Assembly (NCBI GenBank): GCA_964511545.1 | Contig: CAZEFS010000001.1 | Location: 1-34,932 of the forward strand | From: an uncultured Opitutales bacterium | GTDB taxonomy: Bacteria > Verrucomicrobiota > Verrucomicrobiia > Opitutales > CAZEFS01 | Reading direction: 5' to 3' | DNA: 34,932 nucleotides | Shown here: positions 1 to 19,937 of the stretch, in pieces | Layout of the letters: each line of letters begins with the position of its first letter | Position numbering within the stretch: position 1 is the stretch's first letter | Made by a program: the position numbers and the translations under genes | Notes under the pieces: model-generated | What the model saw: only the letters and a program-made list of their open reading frames with translations | The model's database searches: none | Told to the model about the DNA's origin: nothing

Positions 1-15
1 TTTTTGTCAGGTAGT
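1..15 (+). mobile_element. Last 15 nt of an IS4-like right terminal inverted repeat (window appears to open at the edge of another IS copy)
   Basis: nt 1-15 TTTTTGTCAGGTAGT are identical to 19678-19692, the inner part of the right IR of the IS at 18235-19696. The next 4 nt differ (ATGA vs TTAA). Confidence 0.4.
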
Positions 16-32
16 ATGATTTTTCTTGAATT

Positions 33-50
33 TTAGGCTTGACTTTTTGT
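33..50 (+). promoter_or_regulatory. Promoter-like 18-mer containing TTGACT, shared with the tRNA-Ser upstream region
   Basis: TTAGGCTTGACTTTTTGT (33-50) matches 14415-14432 at 17/18 positions. It contains a TTGACT -35-like hexamer. No convincing -10 could be placed. Confidence 0.25.
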
Positions 51-325
51 TTCAACTTTTATATACCGAAACCTATAATTTATTTTTGTTCTTTTACATT
101 CAAATCAGCCTTCTCAGTTTTTGCAAGCTCATTTTTAAAAAAGAGGTTCTCACCGCTTTTTTAAAATGAAGAAGCAGGCCCCCCTGATAATTTTAGCTAA
201 AGTCTACAAACCCCGACCTATAATGATCTTTGATCATCAAAGTAGATTAAAAGGGATTAAAGGGCGGCTGCTTTAGATCCTCTCCTTTTTAAAAAGAAGA
301 AATTCTCTACTTACCCCCCCCCTCC

Positions 326-470
326 CCCCTACGCGGGGTTAGAGCTGAAATTACGCTGCAACCGTAGGGGCGTAGGCGAATGAAATTACGCCGTAGCCTT
401 GGGGAAAGAGAAAGGCTCCCCTACGCGAAGTTAGAGGCTGGGAGTAAACCTCTTGGTGGGCCTACGTATT
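326..470 (+). repeat. GC-rich repeat block, module P (CCCCTACGC-type units, hairpin forming)
   Basis: CCCCTACGC occurs at 326-334 and 418-426 (and again at 18662-18670). The inverted copy CGTAGGGG at 363-370 gives an 8-bp stem with 326-333. TGAAATTACGC is duplicated at about 346-356 and 380-390. Local GC is far above the surroundings. Confidence 0.6.
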
Positions 471-472
471 AT

Positions 473-572
473 TTTGCTTGGCCTGCCGGGCGTCTACACC
501 GAGCCTTCAGGCGTCGCTCTACGAGCGACGTGTCAGGCATAGTTCGCAGAACGACACCTGAACCCAGGCAGC
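473..572 (+). repeat. GC-rich structured repeat, module Q (compact copy)
   Basis: Three blocks are shared with 18593-18748: TGCCGGGCGTCTACAC (14/16), AGCCTTCAGGCGTCGCTCT (19/19) and AGCGACGTGTCAGGC (14/15). Perfect 8-bp hairpin CGTCGCTC-TAC-GAGCGACG at 512-530. TTCAGG (506-511) pairs with CCTGAA (557-562). Imperfect terminal inverted repeat GCCTGCCGGG / CCCAGGCAGC. Confidence 0.65.
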
Positions 573-2603: not shown

Positions 2604-3027
2604 AAGAAGAGAGCTGGAGCGTTCGCCTCTTTTAGCCTAAAAACTAAGAGGGGAGGAAAGTCCGGACACCGCAAGGCACGCCTCCTCATGAAAATGAGGG
2701 CTTCCTGGGCTATACCCAGGGGGATGGACAGTGTCACAGAAAATATACCGCTTTCCAGGGAAGGCTTTTAGCTTTTTCGAAGAAGTAAGGGTGAAATGGT
2801 AGGGTAAGAGCCTACCGCTAGCCTTGGCAACAAGCTAGGCACGAAAAACCCAGGCGGGTGCAAGGCAAAATAAGAGATACGGGCCGCCTGCCCAAGGAGA
2901 AGCGCCTCTATGCTTCTTCGAATATCTCGGGTATGCTGCATCAGATAAATGAACGCAAAAAGCAAAGTTTAAGGGTTCACCTGAGACCTAGTTTTTACAG
3001 AATCCGGCTTATGAAGGCTCTCTTCTT
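2604..3027 (+). ncRNA. rnpB: RNase P RNA, bacterial type A
   Basis: Conserved blocks GAGGAAAGTCCGGAC (P4 5' side), ACAGAAAATATACCGC, GGGTGAAATGGTAGGGTAAGAGCCTACCGC and ACAGAATCCGGCTTATG (P4 3' side). P1 pairing joins AAGAAGAGAGC (2604-2614) to GCTCTCTTCTT (3017-3027). Confidence 0.92.
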
Positions 3028-3031
3028 TTTT

Positions 3032-3167
3032 CTTTTATAGTCGATTCAGTTGAACTAGCGTACAGAAGTTGATCCTCTAAGGTAAAACAATTCATAATTT
3101 TGAAAGCTATTGAAATCCATTCATTCCTTTTTTAGATACGCTAGCTCAACTGAATTTACTATAAAAG
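3032..3167. repeat. 136-bp palindromic element: 31-nt inverted repeats (28/31) around a 74-nt AT-rich core, MITE-like or a long terminator for rnpB
   Basis: Left arm CTTTTATAGTCGATTCAGTTGAACTAGCGTA (3032-3062). Right arm TACGCTAGCTCAACTGAATTTACTATAAAAG (3137-3167). Confidence 0.6.
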
Positions 3168-3405: not shown

Positions 3406-5076
3406 CTATCGTGCCCTTTTTGTCCGAGGGGCGTTTAAGGATCCTTCTTGTTTCTCTTCTATAGCCTTGAGTAAGCGCTCTTGCTCTTCGGTATCTTTTA
3501 CAGTCTCCTCCACTACTGCTTTACGAAAGTCTGGATGCAGTTCAGTACGAGTGACGATAGCCGTGATAAGATCTGTTTTTGCGTCATCCGAAGCCAGATC
3601 ATACAGCCTACGAAATGCTACGAAATGATTCTGAAGCGGTTCCTCTTCCAATAGATCTTCCTCTTTTACTAGAGGCCAGTTTTGACATAGGGTTGTTATG
3701 ACGAGATTTTTTATTTTAGTATCAAGAATGCCTTCTACAAAAGCTATCGCTGCATGCATGGAGCGAAAAGCATCAATGCTCAAAATATTGGCAATAATAG
3801 AAGGATAGAATTCTTCTTGTATTCTTTGATTCATGATCAGCTGTGCAGCCCTCAGTCGATAGTGGATAGGTCTTACTGTAGGATCTTGATCGATAGCATA
3901 AGGCCACAGACGCATTCCAGTATCTACTTGAGGATCTTGAGCGATCGAAAGACAAACTGCATCGCGTTGAGTAGTGTCTTCGATTCGCTCAGCAGCTCTC
4001 AGGCGATCGGCAGGATATACTTTAAGATCTTGAGCGATAGAAAGATAAGCTGCATCGCGCTGAGTAGCGTCTTGGATCCGCTCTGCAGCCCTCAGGCGAT
4101 CGGCAGTATCTACTTTAAGATCTTGAGCGATAGAAAGGCAAATCGCATCGCGCTGAGTAGCGTCTTGGATTCGCTCCGCAGCCCTCAGGCGCTTGGCAGG
4201 ATATACTTTAAGATCTTGAGCGATAGAAAGGCAAATCGCATCCACTACATCACGCTGGTTAAAATCTTTTATCCGCTCTGCAGCCTGTAGGCGATTGTTG
4301 ATATCTACGGTAAGATCTTGAACGATGAAAAGATAAGCTGCACCGTTCTGGGTAGCCTCTTTGATCAACTCCGCAGCCCGTAGGCGATCATTGATATCTA
4401 TTTTAGGATTTTGAGCGATAGAAAGGTAAGCTGAATTGCGCTGGGGATATCCTTGGATCGCTTCTATGGATCTCAGGCGATTATCGAGATCGATCTTAGG
4501 ATCTTGAGCGATACAAAGATAAGCTGCATCGCGCTGGGGATAGGCTTGGATCATCTTCGCAGCATTCAGGCGATTATTGGGATCGACCTTAGGATCTTGA
4601 GCGATGCAAAGATAAGCTGCATCGCACTGAGTACCCTCTTGGATTAGGTTTGCAGCATTCAGGCGACAGAAGCTACTTACCTTAGGATCTTGAGCGATGG
4701 AAAGATAAGCTCTATCACGCTGAGTACCCTCTTGGATCAGCTCTGCAGCCTTTATGCGCTTGCTGGTAGGTACGTTACAATCTTGAGCGATAGAAAGATA
4801 AGCTCTATCGCGTTGGGTATCGTCTTGGATCCATTTTGCAGTCATCAGACGCTCATTGGTAAATTCTTGAGGATCTTCAGCGATGAAAAGAGCTTCCAGT
4901 TCCACCATATTCCCCGGAGCTTCAGCTAAATGGCCTTGTATGGCTGGATTGGCTTCTTGCTGGCTTATAGGCTGATTGGCTTGGTCTGAAGCTGTCTTGC
5001 GGCTTTGATCCGCCTGAGAACTGGCATTGTGTAGACTCTTTCCACCTGGATTAGATATGTTAGTTTGTGTATGCAT
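3406..5076 (-). CDS. Tandem-repeat protein with 11-12 copies of a 31-33 aa HEAT/PBS-lyase-like helical repeat, a polar disordered N-terminus and a basic C-terminal tail
   Basis: 556-aa ORF. The unit AAYLSIAQDPKVDxxxRLRAAERIQDATQRD is reiterated. The protein ends in PRTKRAR. No Shine-Dalgarno motif; AT-rich upstream region. Confidence 0.8.
   Translation of the reverse strand: MHTQTNISNPGGKSLHNASSQADQSRKTASDQANQPISQQEANPAIQGHLAEAPGNMVELEALFIAEDPQEFTNERLMTAKWIQDDTQRDRAYLSIAQDCNVPTSKRIKAAELIQEGTQRDRAYLSIAQDPKVSSFCRLNAANLIQEGTQCDAAYLCIAQDPKVDPNNRLNAAKMIQAYPQRDAAYLCIAQDPKIDLDNRLRSIEAIQGYPQRNSAYLSIAQNPKIDINDRLRAAELIKEATQNGAAYLFIVQDLTVDINNRLQAAERIKDFNQRDVVDAICLSIAQDLKVYPAKRLRAAERIQDATQRDAICLSIAQDLKVDTADRLRAAERIQDATQRDAAYLSIAQDLKVYPADRLRAAERIEDTTQRDAVCLSIAQDPQVDTGMRLWPYAIDQDPTVRPIHYRLRAAQLIMNQRIQEEFYPSIIANILSIDAFRSMHAAIAFVEGILDTKIKNLVITTLCQNWPLVKEEDLLEEEPLQNHFVAFRRLYDLASDDAKTDLITAIVTRTELHPDFRKAVVEETVKDTEEQERLLKAIEEKQEGSLNAPRTKRAR
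3840..4890 (-). repeat. Coding tandem repeat, period 93-99 bp, about 11 units
   Basis: The core GATCTTGAGCGATAGAAAG(A/G)TAAGCTGCATCGCG recurs near 3932, 4026, 4118, 4212, 4311, 4406, 4500, 4593, 4686, 4778 and 4872. Confidence 0.9.
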
Positions 5077-11573: not shown

Positions 11574-14294
11574 ATGAGACCTATCTATAATCCCATTCAC
11601 ACATCTTCTAAGCCTAAGAACGAAACTCAAAGTAATAAACAGCCTCCAGCAGCCCCTAATTCACCTGGGCAAAATAGCAGTGTAGTCCAAAACCATTCGG
11701 ATGCTCCTCAAGCTTCCTTAGTAGGGGCTCCGGCACTAGGTCAAGAGGTCCAACCTAAGGCTAAGCTTAAACCTCTCGTATTTCGTGATGTAAGCGACCA
11801 AGATCTCAAAAATCTTATTAACAATGAAGAAACCTTTAGCCATGCCATGCAAAATGGTAGCATTTTTGGAATGCGATCACCCAATGCCAATGCCTTAGCA
11901 GCAGCTTGTCGTCTTCAAAAATTTGGTTTCGCTATACAGCTTTTAGGGCATCCTTTAGCTGAAGAGGCTTTTCTGGAAGACACTGCTGGAATTGCTAATA
12001 TTTTGGCAAGATTAGATTTGATGAACAATTATGACGAGTCTAAGCTAAAATCATTTTTGCGAACCTTGATTCAAGGCGTAAATATTCAAAAAATAGAAGA
12101 ATATTTTTCAGAAAAGAAACAACATAATTCTATTATTCCTATCTTGGTTGGTCTTTCACAATTCTTCACTTATAACCATGATAATGAGAGCTTAAAGAAA
12201 CTTTTATTCAGCATTAAGAAGGCTGATCATTTGCAGTGCTGTGAAGCAAGTTTAGAGCTCTTTCATGGCAGGATTAATGCTGGCAACATTCTCCAGTCTT
12301 TGGAGTGCATTCTAGAAGCAGGGATTAAACCCAGTAAAGAATGGTGTCATTCGGTTCTATTAAATCGAATGGGCACTTGTTCTCTTGATCATTTAGTAAT
12401 TTTTGAAATGCTAACAGCATTTAATCATAAAAATCTGATTTCCAAAGAAGATAATATTGAGCGTGATGTTTTACTTAAAATTTATAAAAAAACACAAGAA
12501 CGTACACTTTTAGATTGCGCGTTTAATTTATTAAATTATACACATAAAAGAAAAATAAATATATTAAAAAAAGAAGAAAAGAAAGAAATCATACATCAAG
12601 TGTTTTTCTCAATCATCAGTAGCTTCAGCTATGATGAAAAAGACATTCCAGCAGAATTGAAGGATAAAACAGAAAAATTATTTGAATCTATTGAGGTTTC
12701 TGAGGCCAAAGACGTTTTTAATGCTGAATTGATTAACCATTTTTTCACCCGTATTCCAAGGGTAATGTTGGATTGGAAACCCCTGCAGGCAGAATATGTT
12801 GATTGGATACTTGATAGAATGATTAGCACCTTAGGAGAAGAACATTTTATTAATTGTATCGAAACCTCTTCTTTATTAAGAAAGGTCGTGGAATGTTTGG
12901 TTCCTAATCCTTTAAAAATCAAAAGTCTTATCCAAAGAGGAGCGAATCCTATGGTAAAGATTGATTCGAAAACCTACCCTGATCCTTTATTAAACCTAGG
13001 CGTATCTCTAGATATACAACGCTGCCTAGCCCAGTCGCAACATCCGGAGTATAAAGCCTTTGTATTAAGTACTATGTTTGGCCTTAAGAGTGCTGGATTG
13101 CTCGGAAGCAACCCTGCCTCCTCTGTGCCTATTATTGAAAAAGGCTTTGAGGCATTTTTAGAAGCATTCCCATCTAAACTAGACAGCGCTGTCATAGACC
13201 GTATTCAAAAGGCCTATATACAGTCTGTGAGATTCGATAAAAGGCAGGATTTATTAAAACATTTTGCAGAAAGCCCTAGAGAGCCTGATACTATCCAGCT
13301 AGCCTATCTTGATGCTGACAGCCATACCTACGCCTACGTGATGTATCAAGATATGCTGATAGAGACTCAGCGCAGTGAAGAAGACAGTATGTTAGCAAAC
13401 GATAATCAACTATTTTACATGACTAACGCTACTGCTTTCGATGGGGAAAAAGTGCGTGCGATTCAGATGCTGCCTATTGATAAAGCAGAAGCTAGGAATT
13501 TGATAGAACAATCGAATTCAATTAACGATTATCACCTGCGTTTTGGTAAAGATACTGTAGGTTTTTGTCAAAAACACGGTACACCTATCAAAGACTTAGG
13601 CCCTTTATTAGAGCATCTAGGATTAGAAACTTCTTTTTCTACTATCACAGATCCTCTTCAACAGAAGAAAGTAGCCCTAGGAGAGATTTTTCAGAGCTTA
13701 GGCTATCTAGAAAAAGATGGTTCTGGAGCAATTTTGGATACCTTCAAAGACAAGGATAGTGCTGAACTAGTTCAAAATTTAGTTCAAGACACCGACTTAG
13801 ATCCACAAACCTTGACTACCTGGCTCGAAAACCCTTCTTTAAGCAAGATAGACTTTTTAAAGAAAGCCTTAGACATCTTAGGTATTACTCAAAAAAAGCT
13901 CTATTACGTTTCAGATGCAGATCGACAAGACCCTCTAGCCGCTATAGCGTTTGAAAAGACTCCTCAAAAGACAGGTAACTGTTATTTTGCCTCTCCTATG
14001 CTAAACTTTGGTGCGCTCATGTGGTGGGCTACCGTTTTAGAAAGGACGAAGCAGCAGAACATCACCGTAACCCGAGAGCATGTAGGCCAAAACCCAGAGT
14101 TTTATAAGGCTATCTACAAGGAGGTAGAGCCCACTTACAAAGAACTCGTGAGGTTTATGAAGCTGAACGCCTGGGAAGACTATCAGCAGCAGTTTGGCAA
14201 GCTATCCAATCCAGAGATGCAAGCCGAACTCGAAGCCAAAGTCGCTAAACTCAAAAGTCCATCCTACCTTCAAGATAGCGAAGAGGAGATCTAG
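11574..14294 (+). CDS. Large orphan protein (906 aa), possible secreted effector
   Basis: Long uninterrupted ORF. Pro/Gln/Ser-rich disordered N-terminal ~70 aa, a lysine-rich low-complexity patch and an acidic tail. Preceded by 240 bp of very AT-rich DNA. I could not recognise any domain with confidence. Confidence 0.7.
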   Translation: MRPIYNPIHTSSKPKNETQSNKQPPAAPNSPGQNSSVVQNHSDAPQASLVGAPALGQEVQPKAKLKPLVFRDVSDQDLKNLINNEETFSHAMQNGSIFGMRSPNANALAAACRLQKFGFAIQLLGHPLAEEAFLEDTAGIANILARLDLMNNYDESKLKSFLRTLIQGVNIQKIEEYFSEKKQHNSIIPILVGLSQFFTYNHDNESLKKLLFSIKKADHLQCCEASLELFHGRINAGNILQSLECILEAGIKPSKEWCHSVLLNRMGTCSLDHLVIFEMLTAFNHKNLISKEDNIERDVLLKIYKKTQERTLLDCAFNLLNYTHKRKINILKKEEKKEIIHQVFFSIISSFSYDEKDIPAELKDKTEKLFESIEVSEAKDVFNAELINHFFTRIPRVMLDWKPLQAEYVDWILDRMISTLGEEHFINCIETSSLLRKVVECLVPNPLKIKSLIQRGANPMVKIDSKTYPDPLLNLGVSLDIQRCLAQSQHPEYKAFVLSTMFGLKSAGLLGSNPASSVPIIEKGFEAFLEAFPSKLDSAVIDRIQKAYIQSVRFDKRQDLLKHFAESPREPDTIQLAYLDADSHTYAYVMYQDMLIETQRSEEDSMLANDNQLFYMTNATAFDGEKVRAIQMLPIDKAEARNLIEQSNSINDYHLRFGKDTVGFCQKHGTPIKDLGPLLEHLGLETSFSTITDPLQQKKVALGEIFQSLGYLEKDGSGAILDTFKDKDSAELVQNLVQDTDLDPQTLTTWLENPSLSKIDFLKKALDILGITQKKLYYVSDADRQDPLAAIAFEKTPQKTGNCYFASPMLNFGALMWWATVLERTKQQNITVTREHVGQNPEFYKAIYKEVEPTYKELVRFMKLNAWEDYQQQFGKLSNPEMQAELEAKVAKLKSPSYLQDSEEEI

Positions 14295-14414
14295 TGTATC
14301 CAGTGGGGCATCCACGTCCTAGGCCTTAGAAAAAGTACTTTCCTTGTAAGCATCTGAGGCTGTCTGAGAGGCATCTAGGACTATGCATATTCTAAAAACG
14401 CGTCAAAACTTGCT

Positions 14415-14432
14415 TTAGCCTTGACTTTTTGT
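14415..14432 (+). promoter_or_regulatory. Promoter-like 18-mer upstream of tRNA-Ser
   Basis: TTAGCCTTGACTTTTTGT matches 33-50 at 17/18 positions. It lies about 60-75 nt upstream of the tRNA 5' end. The -10 element is uncertain (TATAGT is only 12 nt away; TAGTTTTA lies 19 nt after TTTG). Confidence 0.3.
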
Positions 14433-14489
14433 CCTAGCTATAGTGTCTCTTAGTTTTATATAAAAATATAGGCAACGCCCTATTGTTTA

Positions 14490-14577
<88 letters not shown>

Positions 14578-14662
14578 GCTTTCGTTCTACGAACTACAGC
14601 TGGCAGGCCAAATTTATTTTAACGAAAGCTGTCCGCCGAAGCCTTAGCGAAGGAGGACTACT
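14578..14662 (+). repeat. Structured GC-rich linker between the tRNA-Ser 3' end and the GIY-YIG gene
   Basis: 9-bp stem GCTTTCGTT (14578-14586) / AACGAAAGC (about 14622-14630). Inner GTTC-TAC-GAAC hairpin. AGCTGGCAGG can pair with the tRNA 3' end CCGCCAGCT. The CCGAAGCC and AGCGAAGG motifs recur in the other GC-rich elements. It ends in a canonical AAGGAGG 6 nt before the ATG. Confidence 0.5.
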
Positions 14663-14905
14663 ATGTTTTATGTTTATTTAATCCGCTCAATTCCTTTCTC
14701 GGACCAAGTTTATGTTGGGATTACTGAAGATCTCAAAAAACGCCTAGAAACCCATAATTTTGGTGGTTCTGTGCACACAGCTAAATACAAACCCTGGGAA
14801 TTAATTGTCTATATGGGCTTTCAAAATGAAGTCAAAGCAAGGCAATTTGAAAAATATTCGAAATCTGGTTCTGGTCGTTTTTTTGCTAAAAAACGTTTAT
14901 GGTAG
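14663..14905 (+). CDS. Small stand-alone GIY-YIG nuclease-domain protein (UPF0213-like)
   Basis: 80 aa. FYVYLIRS....QVYVGITEDLKKRLETHN fits the GIY-(x10)-YIG core with the downstream R and the helix carrying H/N. Strong Shine-Dalgarno motif. Confidence 0.85.
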   Translation: MFYVYLIRSIPFSDQVYVGITEDLKKRLETHNFGGSVHTAKYKPWELIVYMGFQNEVKARQFEKYSKSGSGRFFAKKRLW

Positions 14906-14940
14906 ACCGGTACCTCACTTTTTCTGATTCTGCCATTTTA

Positions 14941-15000
14941 CCCCCGAAGTCTCCATTGTGATCCCTTGGGCGCCGTAGCTTAAAAAGCGAAGGCGAAAGG
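14941..15000 (+). repeat. GC-rich module-P-like fragment 3' of the GIY-YIG gene
   Basis: CGCCGTAGC (14971-14979) is identical to 389-397, with CTTGGG adjacent in both places. CCCGAAG and AGCGAAGGCGAAAGG echo motifs at 14630-14655 and 18715-18745. Confidence 0.4.
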
Positions 15001-15109
15001 AGTGTCTCCCAAAATGAATGACACACGCATTGATCAATAAAAGCTTATAGATCCTTTAAAAATAAAAAATATACTTGCGATGTCCTTAAAAATTCACGAT
15101 AGCTAACGC

Positions 15110-15625
15110 TCAAAGCTTTCTTATTTGAATACTGATATATATATCTAGCACAGTGGCGTTAGGATCCGTAGCTCTGGTATCATAGACTTCAAAGTCTGCC
15201 GTATAGGCTCTTTTTCCTCCCAGTTCTGCGGGTGACATCTTCCATATAGCTTCCCAAAGTTCTACACACACTGCAGGCATGGACCCACATTGGCTGGTAA
15301 ACTTCATATAGGTTTGCTCGGGTATCATGATCCTCTTAAGGGGTTCTTGCACTTCTGCAAAGCCACTAATAGCTTCACCTATAAAATACGTGTAGTCGCC
15401 CTTCCAATCGCGCTCATATTCAGTATACACACAATAAGTAGTGCCTGGATGAATACGGTTATGGAGCTGACTTGGGATAGATTGTCCAAAATAGTTTTGG
15501 ATGGTAGCAGCAATCGTATGTTTAGGAGGAGACCCTTCAAAGTTCTCCGCATTATTCGTACGAGCGCTAATACCTACTAACTGAAGAGCAGGTAAGGTAA
15601 CCCGTGTTTTTGAAAAGGGATGCAT
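15110..15625 (-). CDS. GyrI-like / AraC-effector-binding (Cass2-type) small-molecule-binding protein
   Basis: 171 aa. Typical beginning LPALQLVGISART, a duplicated beta-alpha-beta-beta pattern, and the ending ADFEVYD....TVLDIYISI. Confidence 0.7.
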   Translation of the reverse strand: MHPFSKTRVTLPALQLVGISARTNNAENFEGSPPKHTIAATIQNYFGQSIPSQLHNRIHPGTTYCVYTEYERDWKGDYTYFIGEAISGFAEVQEPLKRIMIPEQTYMKFTSQCGSMPAVCVELWEAIWKMSPAELGGKRAYTADFEVYDTRATDPNATVLDIYISIQIRKL

Positions 15626-18234: not shown

Positions 18235-18592
18235 TTAAACTACCTGACAAAAAAAAGGGGTAAGTTAAAAGCTTGATGAACAGTGGGAAAGCTGGCATCA
18301 AGCTTTTATGAAAAAAAAACACACTTACCCGATGGGTAGGCCATATTATATCGCTAAATAAGTCAAGAGCAAAGTGCTTAATGAGAATGATGACGGGGAT
18401 GATTACGCTGAGAACGGTCAATTTGAACCGATTAAGCCAGGCTTTTCGGCCGACGGTTCAAGAGGCCTCACACGAGCGCACCATGAGTCGTTTTCTGAAA
18501 GAAATACAGATAAATCCACTGGAAATCCTTCGGATAGTTAGAGCTATGCTCGCTGCGAAAAAAATAGAATACTTATGCAAATAGGTATCGTT

Positions 18593-18748
18593 TTTGTTGG
18601 CTTGTCGGGCGTCTCCACTACGCCATCTCCACTGCGCTGAAGCCTTCAGGCGTCGCTCTTCCCCCTACGCTCCTTGAGCTACGGGAGACAGGTAGCTTTT
18701 AAAGCGACGTGTCGGGCGAAGCTCAACGAGCGAAGCCCGAAGCCTGAA
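18593..18748 (+). repeat. GC-rich module Q copy, with a module-P-like segment nested in its hairpin loop, inserted in the transposase gene
   Basis: Shares the three blocks listed for 473-572. Here the two halves of the CGTCGCT/AGCGACG stem are separated by about 44 nt (18660-18702) containing CCCCTACGC. Flanking inverted repeat GGCTTGTCGGGC (18599-18610) / GCCCGAAGCC (18735-18744). Confidence 0.7.
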
Positions 18749-19292
18749 TAGAACAAACTGGAAAAGGGGAAAAAAGCACTTAAATTTCTTATTTATAGCT
18801 TTGAAAACGCAGCATTGGACCATCCCCATATGGGTCTTGCCTATCTGTGAGCAAAAACAAGGCAATCATAGCTTAGCTCAGCTAGAATCAGCTCTGGAGG
18901 CCGTTTTGAAGATAATTCCTGCTAAAAAAATAGATTATTTTTTAGGAGATACTGAATTTGGAGCACTGAGCCGAATTAAGCTTTTTCAAGAGAAGGGAAT
19001 TCCCTATATAGTCCGCCTAAAAGAGGAGTGGAATTGGGCTTATCAAGGCGAAGAGCGTCGTTATATTCATGAATGGTTTCGCGGTTTACCCGTAGGGAAA
19101 AGCCGCACTTTAGTGTTACAATTGGGAGAAAAAGCTGAAGTGACTACTTCGGTAACCGCTAAACGCCTCAAAGATGACAGTCTAATTATTGTGGCACATA
19201 ATTCATCCAAAAGAAATCCTATAGACATTTATCGATCCAGATGGAGTATCGAAACTCTGTTTCGTTCCCTTAAAACTAACAAATTTAATAGA

Positions 19293-19433
19293 TCCCTTGC
19301 GAAAGTAGGTATTTTGACTCCTGGGCAGGAAAAAATAGATGAAGAACCGCAGTGTACAGAAGTACATGAGGATTCTGAATGTATTTTTGACGAACCCAGG
19401 GAGCAAAAGACTTCTTTTCCCAAGGGTTCTAGT
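19293..19433. repeat. Small palindromic (MITE-like) in-frame insertion in the transposase C-terminal region
   Basis: 32-nt imperfect inverted repeats (24/32) at 19294-19325 and 19395-19426. ATAGA occurs on both flanks (19288-19292 and 19434-19438). The encoded acidic, low-complexity stretch of about 48 aa lies between KTNKFN and IESTGVTDP, where IS4-type transposases are normally contiguous. Confidence 0.5.
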
Positions 19434-19696
19434 ATAGAATCTACAGGAGTTACAGACCCTTTGAAACTGCGAAATTTAATCCATATTATCATTTTATGCT
19501 TCCTTTTTGTTCTCGATCAAGCCCAATATCTTTTTTCAAAGTTTCCCATTCCTTTTATCATTAAGGCACATGGCTATCCCGCTAAAAGTTATTGGAGATC
19601 CTTCTTTGACCGAATCCAATCCATCATTTTTGACCAATTTATCCCCTTCTTTTCCGCTTCCTATGCGTCCTAATTTTTTTTTGTCAGGTAGTTTAA

Positions 19697-19937
19697 ATGT
19701 TGCTAGTTTTTGTTCTTGATAAGCAGCAGCTTTACTGCGCAAATAAAGACGCAAAATCAGTGGTTGGTTTACATTTTCCAACTGAATTTTATAATTAAGA
19801 TTAGCGCACCCGCCAGCAATCAATTCAAATGCAGTAAGTTTTTTATCAGGATAAGCAAGGTTTATCATTCTTTCTACCATGCTATCTGGCAGCTGATATG
19901 TAACGCTTACTTTTTCCCAAGAGTTTTTAAACATCAC
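19697..19937 (-). pseudogene. APH-family phosphotransferase, N-terminal third (severed from 17470-18234 by the IS)
   Basis: The N-terminus carries ELIAGGCANLNYKI and ILRLYLR. Removing the IS plus one ATGTTGC copy restores a continuous frame ...YQEQKLATFIKKTVPVPLTYYIGE... The start codon (GTG 19937 or ATG 19934) overlaps the upstream GNAT stop. Confidence 0.85.

What the first reader, a model, noticed from the sequence alone, without database searches (positions are those of the whole stretch)
14578..15005. Small GIY-YIG nuclease gene wedged against the tRNA-Ser 3' end, flanked by GC-rich repeat fragments, and the only gene here with a canonical Shine-Dalgarno motif
The 80-aa GIY-YIG ORF begins 85 nt after the tRNA CCA end.

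The linker is highly structured:
- A 9-bp outer stem.
- A C-TAC-G hairpin.
- A segment able to pair with the tRNA acceptor 3' strand.

The 3' flank contains CGCCGTAGC plus CTTGGG, as in module P at 389-404. Motifs CCGAAGCC and AGCGAAGG occur on both sides of the gene and in the element at 18715-18745. A 9-10-nt piece of the tRNA variable arm (GTACCTCAC) reappears just after the ORF stop (about 14910-14919).

The ORF is preceded by AAGGAGG at ideal spacing. None of the roughly 25 other start regions I inspected, including all ribosomal protein genes, has a purine-rich SD. This suggests a foreign or cassette-like origin.

Hypothesis: the GIY-YIG protein could be the trans-acting nuclease associated with spread or maintenance of the P/Q repeats, by analogy with the REP/RAYT relationship.
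Basis: inference. Interest (0 to 1): 0.62.

Follow-up and report, generated by a model that had tools for sequence, protein, structure and literature searches.

The report
tRNA-end hairpin cassette carrying GIY-YIG nuclease
The small nuclease gene next to tRNA-Ser belongs to a widespread, apparently undescribed half-kilobase cassette (two REP-like hairpins plus an 80-aa Slx1-type GIY-YIG nuclease) that sits exactly after the CCA end of tRNA and tmRNA genes in many bacterial phyla and behaves like a selfish mobile element.

Summary
tRNA-Ser(GGA) is at 14490-14577, followed by an 85-nt structured linker and an intact 80-aa GIY-YIG ORF (14663-14905). This ORF has the only strong Shine-Dalgarno among 38 ORF starts, and GC-rich repeat fragments lie on both sides.

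Relatives of the ORF (up to 91% aa identity) occur in many phyla. In 37 of 57 loci a tRNA or tmRNA ends 58-245 nt upstream on the same strand. The linker is itself conserved: 92-93% identical to distant genomes, against 65-74% for the tRNA. It consists of two hairpin modules of one type (stem, GAA, small hairpin, GAA, stem) in opposite orientation. The first module uses the tRNA's own NCCA as part of its stem, with strong covariation.

ORF-less copies are common, both after other tRNAs and dispersed. Six Parvibaculum relatives have the identical tRNA with nothing after CCA. In the window, a 148-nt repeat containing such a doublet is precisely inserted in an IS transposase gene.

The protein is an Slx1/UPF0213-type minimal nuclease.

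Best reading: a selfish nuclease-plus-hairpin cassette that resembles REP/RAYT in organisation but is not a member. The "SD" is the 3' strand of a hairpin module. The "tRNA variable-arm piece" is coincidence. That the nuclease acts on the hairpins is inferred, not shown.

The parts
14490..14577 (+). tRNA-Ser(GGA), the host gene whose 3' GCCA (14574-14577) is the attachment point
   Evidence: ARAGORN and Rfam tRNA at 53.5 bits. In Parvibaculum the equivalent tRNA is syntenic and identical in relatives that lack the cassette.
14574..14604 (-). 5' hairpin module. Read on the - strand it is GCCAGCT-GTA-G-TTC..GAA-C-GAA-AGCTGGC. On the + strand its first four bases are the tRNA's GCCA.
   Evidence: Model R2 gives 40.8 bits, E 1e-8. 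The a/a' and c helices covary. It appears in the predicted folds.
14601..14610 (+). TGGC-AG-GCCA palindrome. The internal GCCA (14607-14610) repeats the tRNA end, and position 14610 is the left breakpoint of a population variant.
   Evidence: Helix d is 91% paired but shows no double changes. The contig joint at 14610 in run X3 is.
14621..14629 (+). AACGAAAGC, the distal partner (b') of the first 9 nt after CCA (14578-14586). It is an alternative to the a/a' pairing.
   Evidence: Covariation: column 11 with column 122 gives GC 15, UA 6, CG 5 and none unpaired.
14631..14658 (+). Second hairpin module (P4), GTCCGCC-GAA-GCCTTAGC-GAA-GGAGGAC. Its 3' strand carries the SD AAGGAGG at 14650-14656.
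   Evidence: Model R2 gives 37.6 bits, E 7e-8. The helix covaries. The fold sequesters the SD.
14663..14905 (+). 80-aa minimal GIY-YIG nuclease of the Slx1/UPF0213 lineage, with catalytic residues Y5, Y17, R27, H31 and E63 intact
   Evidence: Pfam, family alignment, PDB sequence hits, AF2 model at pLDDT 88, and Foldseek hits to Slx1 and HIGLE at TM 0.72.
14906..14955 (+). 3' tail of the cassette, conserved with L001 (72%). Similarity to other loci fades after about 14955.
   Evidence: Alignment A1 and per-segment identities.
14971..14995 (+). Short hairpin module downstream of the ORF (CGCC-GTA-GCTTAAAAAGC-GAA-GGCG). Position 14971 is the right breakpoint of the X3 variant. The module also occurs in other contexts.
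   Evidence: Model R2 gives 22.9 bits, E 8e-4. R1 also hits 14878-15001 on the - strand, E 3e-4.
18600..18747 (+). 148-nt GC-rich miniature element with imperfect terminal inverted repeats, inserted precisely in a degenerate IS transposase gene. It contains an ORF-less hairpin doublet.
   Evidence: Removing 18600-18747 restores ..IGIVFVDRTNWKRGKK.., matching the intact homologue P0272.
18659..18741 (.). Solo doublet with the same (-,+) arrangement as the GIY leader: module 18659-18689 (-) and module 18711-18741 (+). It is closed by GCGTCGCT 18650-18657 with AGCGACG 18703-18709.
   Evidence: Model R1 gives 35 bits, E 3e-8, on both strands. Model R2 gives E 0.006 and 0.014.
479..561 (+). Shorter second copy of the 18600-type element, with the same left end and the internal GCGTCGCT..AGCGACG segment. 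Its module is degenerate.
   Evidence: Alignment A7. Model R1 gives only E 0.26.

Best explanation
What it is. The ORF is an intact copy of a horizontally mobile cassette of about 0.4-0.55 kb found in many bacterial phyla. The parts, in order, are:
- a REP-like hairpin module whose stem begins with the NCCA of a host tRNA or tmRNA gene;
- a variable AT-rich spacer;
- a second module of the same type in the opposite orientation;
- an 80-aa Slx1/UPF0213-type GIY-YIG nuclease gene;
- a short tail.

How it probably works (inferred).
- No promoter-like or terminator-like site lies between the tRNA and the ORF, so the gene is probably expressed by read-through from the tRNA promoter. In this subfamily the second hairpin occludes the SD.
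- The hairpins are the cis-acting sites. Their conserved non-Watson-Crick GAA/GAA internal loops indicate that a folded single strand (DNA, or possibly RNA) is recognised, not duplex DNA.
- The structure-specific nuclease cuts at or near such hairpins.
- Repair copying then spreads the cassette, using the tRNA 3' half and/or module sequences as homology.
- This gives new insertions exactly after CCA, ORF-less derivatives and dispersed solo hairpins.

In organisation it is an analogue of REP/RAYT and of IS200/IS605-type structure-guided elements, built on a different enzyme.

Shown versus inferred.
- Shown: the anatomy, the covariation, the position at CCA, presence/absence between relatives, horizontal spread, decay of copies, and a precise insertion of a doublet-bearing repeat in this window.
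- Inferred: that the nuclease is the acting enzyme, and how copying occurs.
For: Position at tRNA ends.
- In 37 of 57 homologue loci a tRNA (Ser, Pro, Gln, Arg, Glu, Asp, Ile) or tmRNA ends 58-245 nt upstream on the same strand. Three more lie within 460 nt, with tandem leaders in between or a tmRNA found by Rfam.
- The leader starts at the base after CCA in every tRNA class.

Leader conservation.
- Model R1 finds the leader in front of the ORF in 43 of 57 loci. It finds only one weak partial hit in 416 kb of control loci.
- Covariation: the first base after CCA pairs with two partners (GC 14-15, UA 6, CG 5, none unpaired). There are 62 double-change cells against 17.6 in shuffles.
- The reverse complement of the 5' module and the second module share one consensus, with 96% of cells paired.

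ORF-less copies.
- Of 80 sampled genome loci with the 5' module, 44 abut a tRNA end, 26 have the ORF, and about 30 are dispersed solo hairpins. Some are the identical 28-mer in loci labelled as different phyla.
- Some solo copies keep N-terminal remnants of the ORF.

Mobility.
- The leader is 92-93% and the ORF 87-88% identical between the window and L001/L041, while the tRNA is 65-74% identical.
- Six Parvibaculum relatives share TesB-tRNA-Ser(gct) synteny with L007, five of them with at most one base changed in the tRNA. Their homology to the filled locus L007 ends exactly at CCA.
- The same element (94% over 569 nt) follows a different tRNA-Ser in L008.
- L018 has a 21-nt tRNA 3' fragment plus a second leader directly after the ORF.
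- L051 has a nested leader after a GTCCGCCA mimic of the tRNA end.
- Frameshifted copies occur in L023, L041, L051 and L056, and as a 4-nt deletion at 14859 in three metagenomes.
- In run X3 the 360-nt ORF segment (depth 3.5) is replaced by 154 nt of other sequence between the same two modules (depth 7.8).
- In the window, a 148-nt repeat containing a doublet is precisely inserted in an IS transposase gene.

Enzyme.
- The GIY-YIG catalytic residues are invariant.
- The closest solved structures are the structure-specific nucleases Slx1 and HIGLE.
Against: - No experiment or computation here shows that the protein binds or cuts the hairpins.
- A GIY-YIG hydrolase cannot carry out strand transfer, so host repair functions must be assumed.
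- No target-site duplication and no conserved right-end structure were found. The right end is defined only by loss of similarity.
- The protein is strongly conserved (60-90% identity across phyla), which would also fit a useful cellular function.
- The miniature element at 18600-18747 is not inserted at a CCA. Its stems differ from those of the ORF-linked leader, so another enzyme may move it.
- Only 35 kb of this genome is visible, so copy numbers here are unknown.
- Most loci are metagenome-assembled genomes whose taxonomic labels may be wrong.
- No close relatives were found in viral contigs or plasmids, so no transfer vehicle is known.
- The X3 variant rests on one 209-nt contig.
Confidence: 0.6

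Rival explanations
1. RNA-level cassette with a cellular or self-neutralising role. The leader acts as RNA in the tRNA precursor. The first hairpin presents the CCA|N junction, and the nuclease, which leaves a 3'-OH, cuts there. This cut matures the tRNA and frees its own mRNA. The second hairpin regulates translation by hiding the SD. In this reading the nuclease is a trailer-processing enzyme rather than a DNA-mobilising one.
For: - The ORF is always on the tRNA strand, with no promoter-like or terminator-like site between tRNA and ORF.
- The first hairpin includes the CCA, and the second sequesters AAGGAGG.
- The nearest structural relative, At-HIGLE, is described as acting on RNA hairpins (own knowledge; structure hit).
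- A fusion of a prokaryotic Slx1-like domain to the tRNA methyltransferase TrmH has been taken as a hint of a role in RNA metabolism (PMC1564403).
- The protein sequence is strongly conserved.
Against: - The two modules are the same motif on opposite strands, so in RNA one has GAA/GAA loops and the other UUC/UUC loops. This fits DNA-level repeats better.
- Solo hairpins occur far from any tRNA and inside an IS gene.
- Relatives with the identical tRNA manage without the cassette.
- RNA processing alone does not explain spread between genomes. It could coexist with the main explanation as a way of making insertions harmless.
Confidence: 0.2
2. Ordinary free-standing homing endonuclease gene. 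The nuclease makes a sequence-specific double-strand break in or next to empty tRNA genes, and the gene is copied in by recombination, as with T4 Seg proteins. The hairpins would be unrelated terminators or REP-like hitchhikers.
For: - It is a GIY-YIG nuclease next to tRNA genes, as for T4 SegB (PMC2330249, seen).
- Distribution is patchy and decayed copies are frequent.
- tRNA 3' fragments are duplicated next to some copies.
Against: - At 80 aa there is no DNA-binding domain. The protein belongs to the Slx1 lineage, not the HEase/UvrC lineage.
- Targets span at least eight tRNA identities plus tmRNA, which share little beyond the CCA end.
- The leader is more conserved than the ORF, covaries with the junction, and persists and multiplies without the ORF.
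- There is no homology downstream of the insertion between filled sites.
Confidence: 0.12
3. Chance neighbourhood. An ordinary small nuclease gene happens to lie beside tRNA-Ser, and the GC-rich motif matches are compositional noise.
For:
- The GTACCTCAC match is not significant.
- The region 300-460 is not detected by the models.
Against: - The tRNA adjacency recurs in 37 of 57 loci.
- Leader model hits reach E 1e-21, against almost none in controls.
- Covariation far exceeds the shuffled and slid controls.
- The leader is conserved more strongly than the tRNA.
Confidence: 0.02

Closest known systems
REP / REPIN elements with RAYT (TnpA-REP) transposases
   Same: - Short GC-rich extragenic hairpins occur singly and as inverted doublets.
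- One associated nuclease gene is itself flanked by the repeats.
- ORF-less copies outnumber ORF-bearing ones.
- Conserved unpaired nucleotides in the hairpins suggest recognition of folded single strands (REPIN/RAYT papers PMC3116915, PMC2817692 and PMC3479197, listed).
   Different: - The enzyme is an 80-aa GIY-YIG hydrolase, not an HUH/Y1 transposase.
- The module has two internal GAA (or GTA) loops rather than a 5' GTAG tag.
- The doublet is anchored on the CCA end of tRNA/tmRNA genes.
- It spreads across phyla, whereas REPIN-RAYT systems are described as mostly vertically inherited.
IS200/IS605 family (TnpA Y1; own knowledge)
   Same: - Ends are defined by subterminal hairpins.
- Insertion is immediately 3' of a short target sequence.
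- That target is read by base pairing with element-internal nucleotides. Here CCA plus the first 3 nt pair with Z'Y'X'TGG.
- There is no target-site duplication.
   Different: - There is no Y1 transposase and no covalent chemistry is possible.
- The pairing is ordinary Watson-Crick inside the hairpin stem.
- The target context is a tRNA acceptor end.
Free-standing GIY-YIG homing endonucleases (T4 SegB, I-TevI)
   Same: - A selfish GIY-YIG nuclease gene.
- SegB lies in, and cuts within, a tRNA gene cluster (PMC2330249).
- Distribution is patchy and copies decay.
   Different: - Those enzymes are 200-250 aa with separate DNA-binding domains and belong to the HEase/UvrC lineage.
- This protein is the bare Slx1-type catalytic domain.
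- They have no hairpin-doublet leader.
Slx1 / UPF0213 (YhbQ, BH0048) minimal GIY-YIG proteins
   Same: - Best sequence and structure matches.
- The catalytic Tyr, Tyr, Arg, His and Glu are present, and the C-terminal Asn is absent.
- Slx1 cuts branched and stem-loop DNA.
   Different: - There is no RING domain and no Slx4 partner.
- The prokaryotic members were treated as vertically inherited repair or RNA-metabolism proteins (PMC1564403).
- A fixed position after tRNA genes with a structured leader is not mentioned there.
tRNA/tmRNA-targeting integrative elements (tyrosine integrases; own knowledge)
   Same: - They use the 3' ends of tRNA and tmRNA genes as attachment sites.
- They leave partial tRNA 3' duplicates, as seen in L014 and L018.
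   Different: - There is no integrase.
- The element is about 0.5 kb rather than 10-100 kb.
- The junction is exactly after CCA rather than inside the T or anticodon loop.

Membership tests
GIY-YIG nuclease superfamily (Pfam PF01541) | Profile match above the curated cut-off | tested here: met
   53.3 bits against a cut-off of 22.6, E 3.4e-14, over residues 1-71.
GIY-YIG nuclease superfamily (Pfam PF01541) | Catalytic residues: two Tyr of the GIY/YIG motifs, Arg, and the metal-binding Glu | tested here: met
   Y5, Y17, G19, R27, H31 and E63 are invariant in 20 diverse family members and present in the window protein.
Slx1 / UPF0213 lineage of GIY-YIG | Closest to Slx1-type domains in sequence and fold, and lacking the C-terminal Asn of the UvrC/HEase lineage | tested here: met
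   PDB phmmer gives Slx1-type chains (7wme, 7cq2, 4xlg) at E 2e-5 to 7e-4 and UPF0213 1zg2 at E 0.09. Foldseek gives TMq 0.65-0.74 to Slx1/HIGLE. No conserved Asn follows E63. The criterion is from PMC1564403.
Eukaryotic-type Slx1-Slx4 nuclease | C-terminal RING/zinc-finger domain and an Slx4 partner | tested here: not met
   The protein ends at residue 80, directly after the catalytic domain.
GIY-YIG homing endonucleases (I-TevI / Seg type) | A separate DNA-binding region (NUMOD, HTH or zinc finger) joined to the catalytic domain, and a match to the intron-endonuclease model | tested here: not met
   Only 80 aa. NCBIfam TIGR01453 scores 15 bits against a cut-off of 56. The PHROG GIY-YIG homing endonuclease family matches only at E 3e-4, over residues 1-38.
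GIY-YIG homing endonucleases (I-TevI / Seg type) | Sequence-specific double-strand cleavage of the empty allele | not testable with these tools
   Needs a cleavage assay.
REP/RAYT (REPIN) systems | An HUH/Y1 tyrosine transposase (RAYT) flanked by its REPs | tested here: not met
   The repeat-flanked gene is a GIY-YIG protein. No Y1 transposase ORF was noticed in the window, but only part of the ORFs were scanned.
REP/RAYT (REPIN) systems | Short palindromic repeats occurring as inverted doublets and in many copies per genome | tested here: inconclusive
   Doublets and solo hairpins are shown. Copy number per genome could not be counted because only loci, not whole genomes, were available.
IS200/IS605 | A TnpA (Y1) gene, with or without TnpB | tested here: not met
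   The cassette of about 0.5 kb holds only the 80-aa ORF.
Any curated RNA family (Rfam 15) | Match of the leader to a covariance model | tested here: not met
   Only tRNA-related hits were found. The sub-threshold sX4 hit is its tRNA-Ser part.
Known anti-phage defence systems (PADLOC) | Profile match to a defence protein | tested here: not met
   Best E 0.004, over 35 residues only.

The most novel reading that the evidence does not exclude
This would be a new class of minimal bacterial mobile element. Its only protein is an 80-aa Slx1-type GIY-YIG nuclease. Its ends are structure-defined hairpins, and its target, the CCA end of tRNA and tmRNA genes, is read by base pairing with element-internal nucleotides (Z'Y'X'TGG against CCA-XYZ). 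It would also produce cosmopolitan REP-like solo hairpins. In effect it would be a second, independent invention of the REP/RAYT or IS200-type lifestyle on a hydrolytic nuclease.
Probability: 0.35. Interest if true: 0.9.

Novelty: new variant of a known kind. Interest (0 to 1): 0.78.

Why it matters
- If the nuclease-hairpin link is real, it gives a function to part of a very large, long-unexplained family of tiny bacterial GIY-YIG proteins. The family has 933 clusters at 50% identity with E <= 1e-10.
- It would add a second enzyme class to the REP/RAYT type of hairpin-repeat system.
- It would explain a set of cosmopolitan GC-rich hairpins found after tRNA genes.
- It would offer a very small structure-specific nuclease with a defined DNA or RNA hairpin substrate.
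- The predictions are directly testable with oligonucleotides and a simple mobilisation assay.
- For annotation, sequence immediately after tRNA CCA ends in many MAGs is cassette, not host trailer. The strong "SD" here is a hairpin strand.

Tried and rejected
- Synteny in relatives of the window organism. The 906-aa neighbour has no relatives in 185,579 genomes. RpoA only reaches 65% identity, to Opitutales MAGs. It was done in Parvibaculum instead.
- tRNA-derived post-stop segment. Rejected.
- Known RNA family or ribozyme after the tRNA. None found.
- Defence-system or phage-family membership. None.
- Phage or plasmid vehicle. No close relatives in IMG/VR by peptide patterns or in PLSDB by tblastn.
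- Promoter/terminator scan of 14250-15150. Nothing on the + strand between tRNA and ORF. The scan is uninformative about the tRNA's own promoter.
- A simple ORF-less allele at this locus. A closer look shows 154 nt of other sequence in its place, and the 14971 module also occurs elsewhere. The evidence is kept as suggestive only.
- Right-end definition from the empty Parvibaculum sites. This failed because the region downstream of that tRNA is not syntenic among the relatives.
- Literature. Eight full-text searches, including the module sequences themselves, found no description of this arrangement. The library lacks most subscription journals, so absence is not proof.
- A strict rule-based module finder missed weaker modules and was loosened. 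The false-positive rate was measured at about 0.75 per 35 kb.
Full report
OBSERVATION

The window carries tRNA-Ser(GGA) at 14490-14577. An 85-nt linker follows, then an 80-aa ORF at 14663-14905 that matches Pfam GIY-YIG at E 3.4e-14.

The linker's features are all present:
- GCTTTCGTT (14578-14586) pairs with AACGAAAGC (14621-14629).
- There is a GTTC-TAC-GAAC hairpin.
- AGCTGGC (14598-14604) pairs with the tRNA end plus three bases, GCCAGCT (14574-14580).

Folding as RNA or DNA gives two hairpins, with z about -2.5 to -2.8. The first hairpin includes the tRNA's CCGCCA. The second sequesters AAGGAGG (14650-14656).

Of 38 ORF starts, only this one has a strong anti-SD match: -11.7 kcal/mol, with -6.0 as next best.

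The GTACCTCAC shared by the tRNA variable arm and the post-stop region is not significant (28 of 500 shuffles). The post-stop copy is a cassette feature that L001 and L041 also carry next to tRNAs with different variable arms.

THE SAME ARRANGEMENT ELSEWHERE

Relatives of the 80-aa protein, up to 91% identical, were found in 57 genome loci. The labels include Patescibacteria, Gamma- and Alphaproteobacteria, Rickettsiales, Dependentiae, Desulfobacterales, Gracilibacteria and Cloacimonadota.

- In 37 of the 57 loci a tRNA (Ser with three anticodons, Pro, Gln, Arg, Glu, Asp, Ile) or a tmRNA ends 58-245 nt upstream on the same strand.
- Three more have one within 460 nt, with tandem leader copies in between or a tmRNA seen only by Rfam.
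- The family is large: 933 clusters at 50% identity with E <= 1e-10.

THE LINKER IS A CONSERVED ELEMENT

Printing the junctions and aligning 26 of them (A2) shows one architecture:

tRNA..NCCA | XYZ-TTC-[small hairpin]-TTC-Z'Y'X'-TGG-C..GCCA - variable AT-rich spacer - CGAA-Z'Y'X' - TG - [stem-GAA-G..C-GAA-stem] - 4 to 70 nt - ATG

- XYZ varies (GCT, GCC, TCC, CCC, CAC, TAC, CGC, GTC), and both of its partners covary.
- The first base after CCA pairs with the proximal partner (GC 14, UA 6, CG 5, none unpaired) and with the distal partner (GC 15, UA 6, CG 5).
- The structures are 88-90% paired, against 27-45% when slid. There are 45-62 double-change cells, against 13-18 in shuffles.
- The reverse complement of the 5' hairpin and the second hairpin fit one consensus, GCCnGCC-GAA-G-C(loop)G-C-GAA-GGnnGGC. 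This consensus is 96% paired, with 82 double-change cells against 27.

The leader is therefore an inverted pair of one REP-like module. The first copy uses the tRNA's own NCCA as the start of its stem.

The conserved GAA...GAA lies on one strand inside an inverted repeat. In the folded form these bases face each other unpaired. This argues for recognition of a folded single strand rather than of duplex DNA (inference).

In this window's subfamily the 3' strand of the second module happens to read GGAGGAC, which is why there is a "canonical SD". In other subfamilies that strand reads GTGTGGC or GTAGGAC, and the start codon lies further away.

SPECIFICITY OF THE MODELS

Covariance model R1 (whole leader):
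- It finds the leader in front of the ORF in 43 of 57 loci.
- It finds one weak partial hit in 416 kb of control loci.
- In the window it finds the leader (92 bits), a second doublet at 18645-18755 on both strands (35 bits, E 3e-8), and a weaker hit at 14878-15001.

Model R2 (single module) finds five modules in the window:
- 14574-14604 (-)
- 14631-14658 (+)
- 14971-14995 (+)
- 18659-18689 (-)
- 18711-18741 (+)

It shares only the 9-mer CGCCGTAGC and half a module.

ORF-LESS COPIES

- Leaders without an ORF abut other tRNAs in the same loci, for example tRNA-Val in L033 and L040 and tRNA-Arg in L034.
- Of the 80 loci returned, 44 abut a tRNA end exactly, 26 have the ORF within 600 nt, 20 have both, and about 30 are dispersed solo hairpins.
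- Several solo hairpins are the identical 28-mer in loci labelled Verrucomicrobia, Bacteroidota, Acidobacteriota, Patescibacteria and Alphaproteobacteria.
- Many solo copies are complete doublets, and some keep N-terminal remnants of the ORF.

EVIDENCE FOR MOBILITY

1. Between the window and L001/L041 the leader is 92-93% and the ORF 87-88% identical. The tRNA is only 65-74% identical and the flanks about 30%.
2. Six Parvibaculum relatives share the TesB-tRNA-Ser(gct) synteny of L007, five with at most one base changed in the tRNA and one about 92% identical, but have no leader or ORF. Their homology to L007 ends exactly at CCA.
3. The same element (94% over 569 nt) follows tRNA-Ser(cga) in L008. 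It runs from 33 nt inside the tRNA 3' end to 181 nt past the stop codon.
4. L018 has a 21-nt tRNA 3' fragment plus a second leader directly after the ORF. L014 has a tRNA 3' fragment before the leader. L051 has a second leader nested after GTCCGCCA, a mimic of the tRNA-Ser end inside the first leader. L004 and L023 have no tRNA, only a hairpin ending in ..TCTCCGCCA.
5. Frameshifted copies occur in L023, L041, L051 and L056. A 4-nt deletion at 14859 occurs in three metagenomes.
6. In wastewater run X3 the flanks have depth 9.3 and 8.3 but the ORF contig only 3.5. A 209-nt contig of depth 7.8 joins 14584-14610 to 14971-14995 through 154 nt of other sequence. The 360-nt ORF segment is thus replaced between the same two modules, and the left breakpoint lies right after the internal GCCA. 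The 14971 module also occurs elsewhere, so this evidence is only suggestive.
7. In the window itself, 18235-19696 is a degenerate IS with 22-bp perfect terminal repeats and a DDE transposase. An intact homologue (P0272, 75% identical) shows that 18600-18747 is a precise insertion. This 148-nt segment contains the solo doublet. Removing it restores ..IGIVFVDRTNWKRGKK... A shorter second copy lies at about 479-561, behind a similar ..TTTT..TTG flank.

THE PROTEIN

- Y5, Y17, G19, R27, H31 and E63 are invariant. An HTAKYKPW motif and a basic C-terminal tail are conserved.
- The best solved relatives by sequence and by fold are the nuclease domains of Slx1 and At-HIGLE, followed by UPF0213 BH0048.
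- This places it in the Slx1-like standalone group of Dunin-Horkawicz et al. 2006. That paper regarded the group as mostly vertically inherited and does not mention tRNA adjacency (PMC1564403).
- It is not a Seg/I-TevI-type homing endonuclease and not a known defence protein.

MECHANISM

Shown:
- a cassette that begins at the base after CCA;
- a covarying hairpin doublet;
- ORF-less derivatives;
- presence/absence between relatives;
- cross-phylum similarity greater than that of the tRNA;
- decay of copies;
- a precise insertion of a doublet-bearing repeat.

Inferred:
- The gene is expressed by read-through from the tRNA promoter. No promoter-like or terminator-like site lies between them.
- The Slx1-type structure-specific nuclease recognises the folded modules and nicks or cuts there.
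- Host repair copies the cassette, using the tRNA 3' half or module sequences as homology. This would explain spread among tRNA-Ser isoacceptors, subfamilies tied to tRNA types, tRNA-fragment duplications and module-bounded replacements.

An RNA-level role is the main rival and could coexist with this: cutting the precursor at CCA|N so that the insertion does no harm to the tRNA.

COMPARISON AND NOVELTY

In organisation the cassette works like REP/RAYT and recalls IS200/IS605 target reading. It fails the defining test of both, because it has no Y1 transposase. It shares the tRNA/tmRNA target with integrase-borne islands and the enzyme superfamily with T4 SegB, but it is a member of neither.

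Eight full-text searches, including searches for the module sequences, found no description of this arrangement. The library is incomplete, so prior description cannot be excluded.

I rate it a new variant of a known kind (a selfish nuclease with hairpin repeats). There is a substantial chance that it is a new class of element.

CAVEATS

- Only 35 kb of this genome is visible.
- Most comparison loci are MAGs with uncertain labels.
- The right end of the cassette is defined only by loss of similarity.
- No function was tested.

Noticed in passing
window 18235-19696: A degenerate IS. It has 22-bp perfect terminal inverted repeats (TTAAACTACCTGACAAAAAAAA) and a DDE_Tnp_1 transposase. The transposase gene is broken by the 148-nt GC-rich insertion at 18600-18747, by a frameshift near 18567-18585, and by an in-frame insertion of about 46 codons relative to homologue P0272 (FN|IESTG).
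   Followed up: partly
window 1-42: The window starts with another copy of the IS end (TTTTTGTCAGGTAGT..), similar to 19678-19719. A second IS copy probably lies just outside the window.
   Followed up: no
window 464-478 and 18585-18599: The flanks to the left of the two copies of the 148-nt-type element are alike (GTATTATTTTGCTTG and GTATCGTTTTTGTTG). This could be a target-site preference or co-copied flank, and is unexplained.
   Followed up: partly
window 300-460: A mosaic of other GC-rich repeats, with ..TACGCG(N4)TTAGAGCT(N5)ATTACGC.. occurring twice, plus CGCCGTAGCCTTGGGG. The hairpin-module models do not detect it. The same family precedes a copy of the 14971 module in another context in run X4.
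   Followed up: partly
window 2606-3029 (+), and 3032-3062 with 3137-3167: Bacterial RNase P RNA class A (206 bits). A 31-nt inverted repeat, 90% complementary, follows directly.
   Followed up: no
window 3829-4881, inside ORF 3406-5076 (-): At least eight tandem copies of a 93-nt unit (31-aa repeats) in a 556-aa protein with no clear family.
   Followed up: no
window 11574-14294 (+): A 906-aa ORF with no Pfam domain and no relatives in 185,579 genomes. It includes a stretch of 32% GC at 12001-13000.
   Followed up: partly
window, all gene starts (e.g. ribosomal protein operon 20.6-34.8 kb, - strand): The genome is essentially SD-less. 36 of 38 ORF starts show an anti-SD duplex weaker than -5 kcal/mol. 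RpoA is nearest (65%) to Opitutales MAGs.
   Followed up: partly
L149 about 300-460 (same contig as L002): A solo leader after tRNA-Ser(cga). Its second module, SD and ATG run directly into a different, host-like ORF (MFILQVAVPTPLYRLFDY..), so the leader may supply that gene's translation start.
   Followed up: no
L026 5363-5598; L054 5522-5878; L055 5613; L056 3257: In more distant relatives, a group II intron domain or another stable-RNA gene follows the nuclease ORF instead of preceding it. The genes are RNase P RNA and tRNAs.
   Followed up: no
L016, L025, L038 (upstream of the ORF): Two or three tandem leader copies lie between the tRNA or tmRNA and the ORF. The later copies lack the first few bases (XYZTT).
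   Followed up: partly
window 14859: Contigs from three other metagenomes (X3, X7, X9) carry a 4-nt deletion here. It frameshifts the last 15 or so codons of the nuclease.
   Followed up: partly
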